64,000 nt of DNA from NCBI RefSeq assembly GCF_009914755.1, contig NC_060940.1, one strand, 5' to 3'. Below are positions 41,641 to 47,900 of the stretch, piece by piece. The position numbers and the translations under genes are program-made. The notes below the pieces were generated by a model. It was not told where the DNA came from and ran no database searches. It worked only from the letters and a program-made list of their open reading frames with translations. The stretch is from the human T2T-CHM13v2.0 reference genome, Homo sapiens. The stretch's first letter is position 1, and each line of letters opens with the position of its first letter.

Positions 41641-41943
41641 TCAAACCTTGGGGGACACCTGGGAAATCGGCTTCAGCATCTAGACCTTAGTGCCTTCTTC
41701 ACCTTTGAAGATAAAACCTGCCAGGTGTAGTGGTGCGCGCCTAGAGTCCCAGCTATTAAGGAGGCTGAGGCGAAAGGATTGCCTGAGCCCTGGAATGTGA
41801 AACCAGCCTGGGCAACATAGAGAGACCCCCATCTCTTCAATAAATAAATAAATTTAAAACCTGTATATATTCTTATGGTTAAAAGTCAATCAATACAGAT
41901 TACCTAATTTCGTTATCACAGCACCCCTATGAGATAGGTACTG

Positions 41944-44607
41944 TTTTTTTTTAAAGGCTTAAAATGTATTTTAATAGGTCGATGCTGCATTACTGCTCCA
42001 GTTCTCAGAAAAACTCCAAATATATCAGAGACAAATCAAATACAATACACCAATGGAAAAAAAAGGCACAGCATGACTACCTAAGATAGGCGAGTCTAAG
42101 AGCTACTGTCAGACCTTCAGTATACAGTAACCCTGTTCCCAAGATTGTACTAGGCCTATCAAGAAAAGCTGTGAACAGCAGTATCATAGACACAAAAGGG
42201 TCATTCCTGGGTGTCCTCACCCAAGAAAAAAAAGGAGGCAAGTTAACACAAGATTTTTTTTTAAAGATATACTAAAATGAAAATCTCTAAGAGAAAATGT
42301 CTTCTTTAGGACATGAAGGGGTAATATATGGGATATAATAGAACCGTATGTACGTTGCCTGTGACCTTTGTGGACGTTTACCTGAATTCTCACCTGGGAG
42401 TGAATGGAGCAATGCGGCTAAGGTCATTGGGGGATGTTTGGTTTTTGTGGTGTATGTGGCAGTTTCTCTGGGACTGGGGGAGTGTAAGGATAAGAAAGCA
42501 AGTGAGGTTGGGCACGGTGGCTCACCCCTGTAATCCCAGCATTTTGGGAGGCTGAGGCAGGGGATCACGAGGTCAGGAGTTCAAGATCAGCCTGGACAAG
42601 CTTGAACCCGAGAGGCAGAGATTGCAGTGAGCCGAGATCGTGCCACTACACTCCAGCCTGGGCGACAGAGTAAGACTCCATCTCGGGGGCAGGGCAAGCA
42701 AATGAAACAAGATGGACAAAAAAAAAAAAAAAAAAAAAAAAAACAAACAAACCAAAAAAACAGAATGATCAAGATTAATGGGCTCTAACTGGATCTACTT
42801 TGCCATGGTTTCCCCAGGCCCTCAACAATCACATTTGAGACTTCAGGAATGCACCACACAGAACTGATTAAATAATATACTACATAGAATTGACTTGTTT
42901 AATACCACCCCTCCCTTGTCCTCTGCCTCCAGCATACTCCCTAGAGTAGTACAGGCAGGGTAGATCTAACTATTGGAAGGAATCCCTAACACTTTTCCAG
43001 GGTAGAATTCTGGCTGGTCCAAAAAGGGTCCTTCTTTTAAGGGTTTTGAGAAACTAGACACTGCAACTTATTAGTATCGGCGACGTTTGTTTGGAGCAAA
43101 TTCAGCTCCAGGAGCTGCATGGTTGAATGCAGGAGGAGTTTCACCAATTGCCCCAATTCCTTCCATTGTAGCAGCCTGACCAAAGCGTTCAGTTGTTGGT
43201 GGGGTCAATCCCAAAGTTCCATCCGGCATCATAGTGGCAGGTCCTGGAGGAGCTGGGGTACCAGCTGGCACAGGAGCAGGGGTCAAGGCACCTCTGCTGT
43301 TTATGCCCATAGCACCTCCCATAGCCATCTGACCCATCCAAATCTCCTGCTCTCTCACATCAGGGAAGGTTCCCTTGAATCCTTCCTGCTGTGGCTGCAT
43401 CATTTCTTCTTGCTGCCGCCGCATCTCTTCTTCAGGGCGCCTGCGCTCTTCCTCCTGCCTGAGCTCCAGTTGCTTTCGTTTTTGCACCTCTTGGTTGTGC
43501 AGCTCTTCCATCCTCCGAAGTTCTTCTTGGCGCCTCATCAAATTCTGTCTCATTAGCATGACCTGGTGCTTATGGCGTGCAGCCTCCATCTCCATCTCTG
43601 GCTTCTCACGAGCCTCTTTGATGTTGCGGTCCACTTGGTCCTGCTGCTGCTTCTCCATCTCAATGAGTGCCTTCCAGCGCATGGCATATTCATACTCAAA
43701 GGAGCCAGGCTGTGCAAATCTGGGTGGTTGCTCTCGTTCCTTGTGAAATTGCTGGTTTTTTATAACCAGCTTCTCTGGAAGTCCCCCTTCATCATCTAAC
43801 TGGTCCATGGGCTCCATAGTCACAGGACGAGGAAATGTGGTTAGCAGGAAGGAGCCTTCACTGCGTCTGTCCAGAGCTTTCCCAGCAGCTGGCTTCCCTG
43901 AGAACTCAACAATGCCTTTTCCTGAGGGCCTTCCTCGATCATCCACAATGACTACAGCCCTCTCTACCTGGCCAAACACAGAAAAGGCTTCTTCCAGCAC
44001 TTCGTTGGACACATACTGAGGAAGGTTTCGAACTGTAAGGGATGCACTATGGCAGGAAAAGCGCACACGCAGCTGCTTTCCACAGAGTGGCATATTGTCC
44101 AGCTCCACTTTCGCAATCTCCGCTAGGGTTCGTGTTTCCAAGCGGATAAAGCCAAATCCTTAATCCTTATGAATGAAGACTTCGCCTGCCTTTCCATATT
44201 TCTCAAATAGTTTCCTCATTTCTTCCTCAGTGATGTCGGGAGGAAGATTTCCCACAAAAAGACGGCTTCGTTGGGTGAAGGTCTTCTCTCCTGGTTTTCT
44301 AAAATTCTTCAGGCCAAATAGTCAAAGCCTTCATTTTGGCTGCTGGCCTGTTGCCCATTTGCAGGTATTGGCGGTGGTGGCGGCTGCAGCTGTTGCTGCT
44401 GGTGGTGATGTTGATGATGCTTTCTTGGAGTATGGTTTTGCTTCTCCAAGTTAAAAGTTTTATTACTCTGCATTTTTGCACCCTCAACTTCGATTGAAGA
44501 CAGCAAAGTGCCTCCCACTTCCCTCTAACCTGGACTTCTCCTCTACCGACTGGTCTCTCCTCGGAGTAACGGCGACGCTACACGGCCTCTCCCGTCCCGA
44601 GAAAAGC
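41944..44607 (-). pseudogene. NONOP1: Full-length processed pseudogene of NONO (p54nrb), probably NONOP1
   Basis: Intronless: 5' UTR, ATG at 44473 ([12 protein letters not shown]), frameshifting T insertions at about 44316-44326, in-frame TAA at 44162-44160, intact remainder to stop at 43071, 3' UTR, ATTAAA at 41975-41970 and poly(A) at 41944-41952; symbol from recall. Confidence 0.93.
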
Positions 44608-44909: not shown

Positions 44910-47900
44910 AAGATAGGTACTGTTTTACAGACAAGGGATAGCTAACTAAAGCCACTAGGTGTAGCTGACATGGTCAGTAAGTGGTGAAAATAACGTAACA
45001 CCCAGACAAACTGATTCAGAGCCACTTTTTTCTCTCTTCTCTTCTTTTTTCTTTCCTTTCCTTTTCTCTCTCTCTCTTTCTTTCTTTCTTTTTTTTTTTT
45101 TGAGACACGGTCTCTCTCTGTTGCCCAGGCTGGTGTGCAGTGGCATGATCATAGTTCACTGCAACCTTGAACTCCCAGGCTCAAGTGAGCCTCCTACCTC
45201 AGCCTCTCGAGTAGCTGGCACCACAGGCCCACACCACCATGCCCAGCTAGTTTTTTCATTTTTACTTTTGTAGAGATGAGAGTCTCATCATGTTGCCCAG
45301 GCTGGTCTGAAACTCCCAGGTTCAAGCAGTCCTTTAGCCTTGGCCTCCCAAAGTGCTGGGATTACAGGTGTGAGACACGGTGCTGTCCCTGAGCCACCTA
45401 ATTATCCATTCTGTTATACTGACTGCTGCTTATGTGCCTTCACTTCATTTTGAGCAACGTGGGGCCAGAGTCTGTCTAATTTGTCTTAATAGTCTCACCC
45501 CACCTCCCTAAGCAACACACATAATTTGGTAGCAAATAATTCCTTGCTGAATTGAACAGAAGGTGTATTTAGTGACTTCTACGTTTCCTTGCAAATCTGA
45601 AATTTTATGATTATAAGATCCGGTGAATTTTGCTGAATGTCGACTTGGGTCTTCATGCAAACTTTCTTCATGAAGTCTTCACGCCAGCTGGATTCCTCAA
45701 TTGTCATTTATCTGTCCTACCCCAAAAATCCTTCAGTGCTACTGAATATTGCCTTTCAGCAATTACCCAAATTCAGTCTTTCTCTTTTTTTGGGGTGGCG
45801 GGAAGGGGACTGAGTTTTGCTCTCGTCGCCCAGGCTGGAGCACAGTGGTGCGATCTCAGCTCACTGCCACCTCTGCCTCCCAGGTTCAACAATTCTCCTG
45901 CCTCAGCCTCCTGTGTAGCTGAGATTATGGGTGCCCGCCACCACGCCTGGCTAATTTTTGTATTTTTAGTACAGATGGGGTTTCACCATATTGGCCAGAT
46001 GGTCTCGAACTCCTGATGTACGGTGATCCACCTGCCTTGGCCTCCCAAAGTGCTAGAATTACAGGCGTGAGCCATTGCACCTGGCTCAACATTTCTCACC
46101 ACTCAGTCTCTTCATTATCTAGAACGTGCCTGTGCTACCTGCCGTAACAGAGTATGGCTGGAGGCTATTTCTCATTTTCTAGTTTATCATATCAATTTTT
46201 TTTTTTTGAGACAGAGTCTCACCCTGTCATCCAGGCTGGAGTCCAGTGTGCAATCTTGGCTCACTGCAACCTCCGCCTCCCAGGTTCAAGCGATTCTCAA
46301 GCCTCAGGCTCCTGATTAGCTGGGACTACGGGTGTGTGCCACCATGCCCAGCTAATATTTGTATTTTTTGTAGAGATGGGTTTTCACCATGTTGCCCAGT
46401 CTGATCTCGAGCCCCTGACAGTCTGATCTGCCCGCCTTGGCCTCCCAAAGTACTGGGATTACAGGTGCCAGCCACCGCACCCTGTCAGATTTTATTCTTT
46501 TAATGTGCAGTGTGTGCTCTTTGCTTGTCCCTTCTCCCCTTTGGTGAACACTTACTCAGATGCCACTAAATCTTTTCTGCAGGGTTGTTAAAAAAAAGCA
46601 ACAAAAGATAAAAAATGAAATATGAAAGAAGAAAACAAACCGAAACCAACAAATGCTAGTAAGTCAAGGAAATAGTCTCTAATTTATCTAGAACAGAATT
46701 AGTAAAACTGCCATCAATGGAACTGGAGAAGTTTTAGTTATAGTAGTTTTATAAATGAGACTAATATAGGGTTTAATGTACAAAGACAGGACTGTATCTC
46801 CTTGAAAGTTAATCTCTTGGATTTGGAGTGGTACTACAAAAAGTAGAGACTAAGTGTTCAACCTATTTATTTATTTAGATACAGAGTCTCACTCTGTCGC
46901 CCAGGCTGGAGTGCAGAGGCGTTATCATGGCTCACTGCCACCTCCGCCTCCCGGGTTCAAGCAATTCTCCTGCCTCAGGTTCTGGAGTACCTGGGATTAC
47001 CCGCACCCGGACCATGCCCGGCGAATCTTTTTTTTTTTTTTTTTGTAGTTTTAGTAGAGATGGGGTTTCACCAGGTTGGCCAAGTGGGTTTCGAACTCCC
47101 GACCTCAGGTAATCCACCTGCCTCTGCCTCCCAAAGTGCTGGGATTACAGGCGTGAGCCTCCACGCCCCACCAGCCAATTTAATTTGTATGCATGATAGA
47201 ATCCATCCCAATTCGAAGACCCAAAAATAACAGATTAGTACAAGTCTTTGAGGCTAATTACGTCATTAGTATTAATTTTAATCAATGGTGATTAAACTGA
47301 GCCTTCATTCAACTTGTCCAGAACATCAGTCAAGAATGTCTATTTAAAATGTTCTTGGAGGCCGGGCGCATTGGCTCACGCCTATAATCTGAGCACTTTG
47401 GGAGGCCAAGGCAGGTGGATCATCTGAGGTTAGGAGTTTGAGACCAGCCTGGCCAACATGGTGAAACCCCATCTCTATTAAAAATACAAAAATTAGCCAG
47501 GCATGGTGGTGGGTGCCTGTAGTCCCAGCTACTCAGGAGGCTGAGGAAGGAGAATTGCTTGAACCTGGGAGGCAGAGGTTGCAGTGAGCCAAGATTGAGC
47601 CACTGCACTCCTGCCTGGGCTACAAGAGTGAAACTCTGTCTCAAGCAAGCAAATAAATAAATAAATAAATAAATAAATAAAGTTATTGGGCAGGCACAGT
47701 GGCATTCGCCTGTAGTCTCAGCTACTTGGGAGGCTGAAGCAAGAGGACTGCTTGAAGCTGGGAGTTCGAGCCCAGCCAAAGCAACCTATCCAGACCCATC
47801 TCTTAAAAAAAATATTTCTCTGCCAGGTGCGGTGGTTCATGCCTGTAATCCCAGCACTTTGGGAGGCCAAGGTGGGCGGATCATTTGAAGTCAGGTGTTC

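What the first reader, a model, noticed from the sequence alone, without database searches (positions are those of the whole stretch)
41932..44926. Chimeric AluY + full-length NONO mRNA retro-insertion inside one target-site duplication
Seen: the 16-mer AGATAGGTACTGTTTT occurs at 41932-41947 (next to the NONO poly(A)) and at 44911-44926 (next to the Alu 5' GGCC). It therefore encloses both the retrocopy and the AluY. The Alu A-tail abuts the NONO 5' end with no separate Alu TSD. The rebuilt empty site (cccctatg agataggtactgtttt acaga) reads as continuous MIR-like sequence with a TTTT/AC nick resembling the L1 endonuclease site. Known: L1 ORF2p can join two RNAs in one insertion, as in U6-L1 type chimeras. 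Inference: one TPRT event copied NONO mRNA to its 5' end and then continued on an Alu RNA. Standard annotation would list these as two unrelated features.
Basis: partly seen in the sequence, partly recalled or inferred. Interest (0 to 1): 0.85.

Follow-up and report, generated by a model that had tools for sequence, protein, structure and literature searches.

The report
Alu plus NONO retrocopy, one duplication
A full-length Alu and a full-length dead copy of the NONO messenger RNA sit head to tail inside one perfect 16-base target duplication, but the sequence alone cannot tell whether they arrived in one jump or as two ordinary successive insertions.

Summary
The 16-mer occurs exactly twice in the window, at 41932-41947 and 44911-44926. 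It encloses, on the minus strand, one extra T, a full-length AluY-type element, its 23-nt A-rich tail, one extra G, a 12-exon spliced NONO retrocopy (NONOP1) and a 5-nt A run.

The retrocopy starts at the first base of parental exon 1 on chrX. The extra G is probably cap-derived. No Alu lies upstream of the parental start.

The single-event reading is not established. NONO is itself flanked by A8 and A9, so a NONO-only duplication made of tail A's could be hidden there. Same-orientation insertion next to Alu A-stretches, leaving little or no visible duplication, is a documented genomic hotspot.

My odds are about 0.6 for Alu first and NONO later into its tail, and about 0.3 for one TPRT event with a template jump. 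Both kinds are known. Orthologous loci in gibbons and Old World monkeys would decide, and no primate genomes were available here.

The parts
41932..41947 (-). Target-site duplication, 3' copy in element orientation. It begins with AAAA on the minus strand.
   Evidence: Exact 16-mer, one of only 2 copies in the window. The plus strand reads ...CTGTTTT followed by the T-run.
41948..41952 (-). Remaining poly(A) of the NONO retrocopy. It is 5 A's, or 9 counted together with the AAAA of the duplication.
   Evidence: Read directly. The alignment to the parent ends at 41950, at the parental 3' end; an ATTAAA lies about 30 nt upstream of that end.
41950..44606 (-). NONOP1, a processed, full-length and dead retrocopy of the X-linked NONO mRNA.
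   Evidence: 12 colinear exon blocks of G000:C23 69717764-69735278 with all introns absent. There are 71 mismatches in 2622 aligned bases. The reading frame stops after 54 residues.
42506..42755 (+). Alu-derived stretch plus T/A-run inside the NONO 3' UTR. It was inherited from the parental mRNA.
   Evidence: It aligns colinearly to the parental last exon. It is absent from the older chr2 NONO pseudogene, where the flanking matches lie 13 nt apart.
44607..44607 (-). Extra G between the Alu tail and the first NONO base. It is probably a copy of the mRNA cap or an untemplated addition.
   Evidence: The parent has T at this position (L014:1500). [quoted passage not shown]
44608..44630 (-). Alu A-rich tail, reading AAAAC three times and then A8 on the minus strand.
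   Evidence: Read directly.
44631..44909 (-). Full-length AluY-type element, starting at its own first base (GGCC...).
   Evidence: All 40 scored candidates (of 6644 found by the first look) match at 91% or more across many chromosomes, and the best non-self match is 94%. It differs by 16 substitutions and a 2-nt deletion from the sequence shared by 6 of the 29 fetched copies. The subfamily name rests on recalled diagnostic positions.
44910..44910 (-). One extra base (T on the minus strand) at the 5' junction of the Alu.
   Evidence: The left copy is preceded by G and the right copy by A, so this base is not part of the duplication.
44911..44926 (-). Target-site duplication, 5' copy in element orientation. 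It is followed on the plus strand by ACAGA, so the first nick was at TTTT/AC.

Best explanation
Two successive L1-driven insertions at one site.

First, an AluY RNA was inserted by target-primed reverse transcription at a TTTT/AC nick. This created the 16-bp duplication and left the Alu with a long A-tail next to the right-hand (3') copy.

Later, L1 endonuclease nicked the T-rich strand opposite that A-tail. One nick that fits is T8|G on the plus strand, at the last AAAAC|AAAAAAAA step of the tail. A capped, fully spliced NONO mRNA was then copied from its poly(A) to its cap (the extra G). It was joined in the same orientation, between the tail and the 3' copy of the Alu's duplication.

The duplication made by this second event consists only of A's (A8 on the 5' side, inside A9 on the 3' side), so it cannot be recognised.

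Shown: the anatomy, the full length of both parts, the spliced origin of the retrocopy, and the absence of an Alu at the parental promoter. Inferred: the order of events and the position of the second nick.
For: NONO is flanked by A8 and A9. That is exactly what a duplication of tail A's would leave.

Sense-orientation insertion directly next to an A-stretch of a resident Alu, with 'very short (if any) TSD', is described as the dominant hotspot for nearly 19,000 Alu self-insertions (Levy 2010, PMC2836564, Discussion read).

Full-length Alu pairs 24 bp or less apart are about 13 times more often direct than inverted, I:D 0.073 (Cook 2011, PMC3215922, section 6 read).

The Alu is more diverged than the NONO part. 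It has 16 substitutions where 9.0 are expected at the NONO part's CpG and non-CpG rates, Poisson P = 0.022 (rates). Non-CpG divergence is 10 of 231 against 63 of 2496. CpG transitions are 6 of 25 against 8 of 63.

No trailer sequence lies between the Alu tail and the G. A jump onto the true 3' end of a Pol III Alu transcript would be expected to copy such a trailer (inference from recalled Alu transcript structure).
Against: The age difference is weak. If the Alu's source differed from the reference at 1, 2 or 3 sites, P rises to 0.049, 0.093 and 0.156. The separate Fisher tests give 0.085 (non-CpG) and 0.16 (CpG).

The host Alu is of the subfamily that was young when NONOP1 arose. At that time such Alus were a small minority of all resident Alus (recalled), so a random resident Alu would more likely be an older type. 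Younger Alus do, however, have longer tails.

This reading requires the NONO poly(A) to have shrunk to between 1 and 5 nt. Yet a run of about 29 pure T's survives inside the same retrocopy.

No Alu-only allele or species has been seen.
Confidence: 0.58

Rival explanations
1. One TPRT event with an end-to-end template jump. ORF2p nicked at TTTT/AC, primed on the NONO poly(A) and copied the whole spliced mRNA up to the cap (extra G). It then continued on the A-tail of an AluY RNA to that RNA's first base. The 5' end was joined with one extra base. One 16-bp duplication therefore encloses both parts.
For: A single perfect 16-bp duplication encloses both parts, and its length matches the usual 15-16 bp spacing of nicks. 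Both parts have the same orientation and both are full length. The junction is tail-G-first base of exon 1.

Neither part has a duplication of informative sequence of its own.

Purified ORF2p performs non-templated addition and template jumping that makes concatenated cDNAs in vitro (Baldwin 2023, PMC10830420, passages).

452 sense-oriented, mostly full-length Alu/L1 insertions inside one duplication have been reported. In 82.8% of them the Alu subfamily was active at the time (Law and Burns 2026, PMC13174262, sections 10, 12, 19 and 23 read). By the 2.7% divergence of NONOP1, an AluY-type partner fits that rule (dating by recalled primate rates).

The cap-type G argues against RNA ligation before TPRT. 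If this was a single event, it was a jump.
Against: Nothing here excludes the sequential route, and that route is far more common genome-wide.

The Alu looks about 1.8 times more diverged than the NONO part.

The jump would have to land inside the Alu A-tail rather than at the 3' end of a Pol III transcript, because no trailer or U-run was copied (inference).

The 3' partner is not 5'-truncated, unlike the usual chimeras (feature recalled from Buzdin 2003, which was not held).
Confidence: 0.3
2. NONO retrocopy first, with the Alu inserted later exactly at its 5' junction.
For: Only that the two parts are adjacent.
Against: An Alu that arrived later should carry its own duplication. On the minus strand, the 20 or so bases before its 5' end and those after its tail share no repeat longer than 3 nt (one search lists no such pair). 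The 16-mer would also have to lie between NONO and the Alu, and it does not.
Confidence: 0.03
3. Retrocopy of a single chimeric transcript: an Alu-NONO read-through RNA from the parental locus or from another NONO copy.
For: It would explain one duplication without any jump.
Against: The 500 bases upstream of the parental exon 1 contain a pyrimidine-rich, CpG-rich promoter and no Alu.

A search with the first 127 nt of the retrocopy finds only this locus and chrX exons 1 and 2, 3 matches in all. The only other NONO pseudogene found, on chr2, is 5'-truncated.

The insertion starts exactly at Alu base 1, as a Pol III transcript would. But the NONO part begins CTTTTC, and a TTTT run stops Pol III (recalled).
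Confidence: 0.03

Closest known systems
Nested L1-mediated insertion next to the A-stretch of a resident Alu (Levy, Schwartz and Ast 2010; direct Alu pairs of Cook et al. 2011)
   Same: Same orientation, and the new element lies directly after an A-run of the older Alu. The outer duplication of the older Alu is left intact. The inner duplication is reduced to A's.
   Different: The published counts concern Alu-into-Alu events, and Levy et al. left element ends (tails) out of their analysis. Here the incoming element is a 2.6-kb capped mRNA. The order of events is not shown for this locus.
Alu/LINE-1 chimeric insertions (Law and Burns 2026, 452 loci)
   Same: A sense-oriented, full-length Alu at the 5' side of a second L1-mobilised RNA copy. 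One duplication of 7 bp or more, an EN-like site, and an Alu subfamily active at the time.
   Different: The 3' partner here is a cellular mRNA, not L1, and it is full length rather than truncated. Contemporaneous arrival, the defining criterion of that catalogue, has not been tested for this locus. The catalogue covers only L1 as 3' partner (sections read).
Bipartite chimeric retrogenes by template switching (U6/L1 type; Buzdin et al. 2002, 2003)
   Same: Two RNA copies are fused directly in one orientation, with poly(A) at the 3' end and flanking direct repeats.
   Different: In that class the 3' part is typically truncated at a random point and the 5' part is a small nuclear or ribosomal RNA (recalled; the paper was not held). 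U6/L1 can arise by RtcB ligation (Moldovan 2019, abstract in the search listing). The cap-type G here makes ligation unlikely.
Ordinary processed pseudogene (NONOP1 as annotated in RefSeq)
   Same: Spliced, ends at the parental poly(A) site, disabled reading frame. The annotated span 41950-44606 matches my alignment to the base.
   Different: The annotation treats the adjoining Alu as unrelated and does not record the shared duplication.

Membership tests
L1-mediated processed pseudogene | Colinear copy of the spliced mRNA with all introns absent | tested here: met
   12 exon blocks of chrX NONO align in order at 89.9-100% identity. Introns of the parent are absent.
L1-mediated processed pseudogene | Ends at the parental polyadenylation site with an A-run | tested here: met
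   The alignment ends at the parental 3' end, about 30 nt after an ATTAAA. It is followed by an A-run of only 5-9 nt.
L1-mediated processed pseudogene | Target-site duplication and a T-rich/purine nick site | tested here: met
   Perfect 16-bp repeat and TTTT/AC. Whether this duplication was made by the NONO event or by the Alu event remains open.
Template-switch chimeric retrogene (Alu/L1-type or Buzdin-type) | Two RNA copies joined directly, in the same orientation, inside one duplication | tested here: met
   Alu tail, one G, then the first base of NONO exon 1. Both are on the minus strand, with the 16-mer outside both.
Template-switch chimeric retrogene (Alu/L1-type or Buzdin-type) | Neither part has a duplication of its own | tested here: inconclusive
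   There is none around the Alu. NONO is flanked by A8 and A9, which may or may not be a duplication.
Template-switch chimeric retrogene (Alu/L1-type or Buzdin-type) | Both parts arrive together in the phylogeny (criterion of Law and Burns) | not testable with these tools
   No primate genomes are held. As a proxy, the Alu has 16 substitutions against 9.0 expected at the NONO part's rates, P = 0.022-0.156.
Template-switch chimeric retrogene (Alu/L1-type or Buzdin-type) | 3' part truncated at its 5' end at a random point (recalled from Buzdin 2003, not read here) | tested here: not met
   The NONO part reaches the first base of exon 1 and carries an extra cap-type G.
Nested insertion into a resident Alu tail | Host Alu older than the inserted element | tested here: inconclusive
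   Non-CpG divergence is 4.3% against 2.5%. CpG transitions are 24% against 12.7%.
Nested insertion into a resident Alu tail | An Alu-only state exists in some lineage | not testable with these tools
   No primate genomes are held.
AluY-type SINE | Dimeric element of about 280 bp, full length from its first base, A-rich tail, closest to young high-copy genomic copies | tested here: met
   279 bp plus a 23-nt tail. All 40 scored genomic matches are 91-94% identical apart from itself. 6 of the 29 fetched copies are identical to each other. The subfamily label itself is recalled.

The most novel reading that the evidence does not exclude
The locus is a natural record of ORF2p copying a capped cellular mRNA to its very end and then jumping end-to-end onto the A-tail of an Alu RNA within one TPRT event. 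It would be an Alu/mRNA chimera with a full-length 3' partner. The current catalogue of L1 chimeras does not cover that class, because it screens only insertions whose 3' partner is L1.
Probability: 0.3. Interest if true: 0.55.

Novelty: new member of a known kind. Interest (0 to 1): 0.3.

Why it matters
If the two parts arrived together, the locus would show in vivo what has been shown for purified ORF2p. After reaching the cap of a cellular mRNA, the enzyme can take up a second RNA instead of the target DNA, and Alu RNA is such a partner for ordinary mRNAs as well as for L1. That would justify extending chimera catalogues to processed pseudogenes.

If they arrived separately, the locus is an ordinary nested insertion. 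It then serves as a caution: a shared duplication around an Alu and a downstream element is not by itself evidence of a single event, because a second duplication made of tail A's leaves no trace. Either way, the question can be settled by one look at a primate alignment.

Tried and rejected
- **MIR test.** I tried to show that the empty site is continuous in other MIR copies. An own-genome search with the left flank found only itself. BLAST of the rebuilt site against the masked window and against 138,818 bases in 42 other loci gave no hit spanning the junction. The MIR claim stays untested.

- **Read-through from an Alu at the parental promoter.** Rejected.

- **A second Alu-NONO source locus.** Rejected. 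Only 3 matches to the 5' end were found: this locus and chrX exons 1 and 2.

- **Later insertion of the internal 3' UTR Alu.** Rejected, because it is in the parent.

- **Alu inserted after NONO.** Rejected for lack of any Alu-only repeat.

- **Bacterial promoter and terminator scan of the junction.** It returned nothing and has no bearing on a human locus.

- **Papers not held.** Buzdin 2003 (by DOI and PMC id) and Buzdin 2004. What I say about them is recalled or taken from other papers' reference lists.

- **Searches for this locus in print.** 'NONOP1' found 1 paper, and it is unrelated. 'p54nrb' with 'processed pseudogene' and 'chromosome 16' found 1 paper, a general review. I found no description of this locus in those two searches. 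The supplementary tables of Law and Burns were not opened. They list L1 chimeras only, according to the sections I read.
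Full report
**1. What is there**

Chance expects 0.03 matches, and 0 of 100 shuffles gave two.

Read on the minus strand, the block between and including the two copies is:
- duplication copy, 44926-44911
- one extra T, 44910
- a 279-bp Alu that starts at its own first base, 44909-44631
- its tail, AAAAC three times followed by A8, 44630-44608
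- one extra G, 44607
- the NONO retrocopy, 44606-41950
- an A-run of which 5 A's lie outside the duplication, 41952-41948
- duplication copy, 41947-41932

On the plus strand the left copy ends in TTTT and the right copy is followed by AC, so the first nick was at TTTT/AC.

**2. The NONO part**

A search of the window's own genome placed the parent on contig C23, the X chromosome. Local BLAST against the fetched loci shows 12 colinear exon blocks from 69717764 to 69735278 with every intron absent.

- **5' end.** The first 67 nt match exon 1 at 98.5% and begin at the C of a CTTTTCTC run in the parental promoter. The base before it is T in the parent and G in the retrocopy.
- **3' end.** The copy ends at the parental 3' end, about 30 nt after an ATTAAA.
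- **State.** It is dead: the frame stops after 54 residues.
- **Internal Alu.** The Alu-like stretch at about 42506-42755 is part of the parental last exon. It is missing from an older, 5'-truncated NONO pseudogene on chr2 that is 80-85% identical. It was therefore carried in with the mRNA.
- **Divergence.** Retrocopy and parent differ at 71 of 2622 aligned bases. That is 8 CpG transitions among 63 parental CpGs and 63 other substitutions over 2496 sites.

**3. The Alu part**

The own-genome search scored 40 of 6644 candidates. Apart from the locus itself, the best are 94% identical. Six of the 29 fetched copies, on different chromosomes, are identical over 281 bp, and I used that sequence as the reference.

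Against it the Alu has 16 substitutions: 6 CpG transitions among 25 CpGs and 10 others over 231 sites. It also has one 2-nt deletion. A majority consensus of the 29 copies gives a similar picture. I call the element AluY-type from recalled diagnostic positions.

**4. Single-transcript origins**

These are excluded as far as the present genome allows.
- There is no Alu in the 500 bases upstream of parental exon 1.
- The retrocopy's 5' end is found nowhere else in the genome except this locus and chrX (3 matches in all).
- A Pol III read-through from an Alu would stop at the TTTT in the first bases of NONO (recalled property of Pol III).

An Alu inserted after NONO is also unlikely. The Alu has no repeat of its own, and the 16-mer does not lie between the two parts.

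**5. The two live readings**

*(A) One TPRT event.* It primes on the NONO poly(A), runs to the cap and continues on an Alu RNA.

*(B) Two events.* The Alu is inserted first, at TTTT/AC. NONO is inserted later, in the same orientation, at the Alu's tail.

That does not follow. In (B) the second duplication is a piece of the tail, made only of A's, and NONO is in fact flanked by A8 and A9. One concrete version fits the present sequence base for base: a nick at T8|G on the plus strand and an 8-nt duplication. It leaves room for only about 1 nt of NONO poly(A).

**6. Evidence bearing on the choice**

*For (B):*
- Levy et al. describe sense insertion next to an Alu A-stretch with 'very short (if any) TSD' as the main hotspot of nearly 19,000 Alu self-insertions (Discussion read).
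- Cook et al. find that full-length Alu pairs 24 bp or less apart are direct about 13 times more often than inverted (section 6 read).
- At the NONO part's own rates the Alu should carry 9.0 substitutions but carries 16, Poisson P = 0.022.
- That signal is weak. It rises to 0.049, 0.093 and 0.156 if the Alu's source differed from the reference at 1, 2 or 3 sites. The stratified Fisher tests give 0.085 and 0.16.
- No trailer or U-run lies between tail and G, as a jump onto the true 3' end of a Pol III Alu RNA would leave (inference).

*For (A):*
- ORF2p adds untemplated bases and jumps templates in vitro (Baldwin 2023, passages).
- 452 sense Alu/L1 pairs inside one duplication are reported. In 82.8% of them the Alu subfamily was active at the time (Law and Burns 2026, sections read).
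- The Alu here belongs to the subfamily that was young when a copy now 2.7% diverged arose. Under (B) a random resident Alu would more likely be of an older type (recalled copy numbers). The longer tails of young Alus soften this argument.

*Uninformative:* the short terminal A-run is odd under both readings, since a run of about 29 T's survives elsewhere in the same retrocopy.

**7. Weighing**

The base rates favour (B) by several-fold. The subfamily argument favours (A) by several-fold. The divergence favours (B) by about two-fold. I put (B) at about 0.58, (A) at about 0.30 and the remaining readings at a few percent each. These odds are judgement, not computation.

**8. Comparison with what is known**

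Both readings belong to known kinds. The locus is annotated as NONOP1. My two searches for it in print found nothing relevant.

If (A) is true, it would be an Alu/mRNA chimera with an untruncated 3' partner. In the sections I read, the Law and Burns catalogue does not cover that class, since it screens L1 as the 3' partner. Older surveys may have touched on it, but I could not read them (Buzdin 2003, not held).

**9. What would settle it**

The orthologous locus in gibbons and Old World monkeys.

Noticed in passing
window 42506-42755; L002:1995-2170 (chrX NONO last exon): The parental NONO 3' UTR contains an antisense Alu-derived stretch. NONOP1 inherited it, and the older chr2 NONO pseudogene lacks it. 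This gives a relative date: chr2 copy, then the Alu entering the NONO 3' UTR, then NONOP1. The adjoining T-run is about 28 nt longer in the retrocopy than in the parent.
   Followed up: partly
window about 44393-44407 (minus strand); chrX exon at C23:69724737-69724904: The retrocopy lacks 15 nt (five codons) of the His/Gln-rich repeat near the NONO N-terminus relative to the present parent. This is either a repeat-length change in one lineage or an old allele.
   Followed up: no
G000:C2:60941760-60943885 (L003, L004): A second, older NONO processed pseudogene, 80-85% identical. It is 5'-truncated, with no match before base 347 of the query.
   Followed up: partly
window 41715-41860: An Alu right-arm-like fragment, followed by an AAAT-repeat tail, lies about 70 bp to the left of the insertion. 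It sits within or next to a RefSeq enhancer interval (41130-41752) and about 470 bp from the NOB1 start at 41460. The composite insertion thus sits just upstream of the NOB1 promoter.
   Followed up: no
window 45020-45380: A CT-rich low-complexity stretch, followed by another minus-strand Alu, begins about 100 bp to the right of the duplication. That Alu is 73% identical to the AluY-type element over 182 nt.
   Followed up: no
L018-L023 (six chromosomes): Six of the 29 best-matching Alu copies are 100% identical to each other over 281 bp. They presumably belong to a very young subfamily. They share one position (GGGG in place of GGAG) with the window's Alu, against the majority consensus.
   Followed up: no
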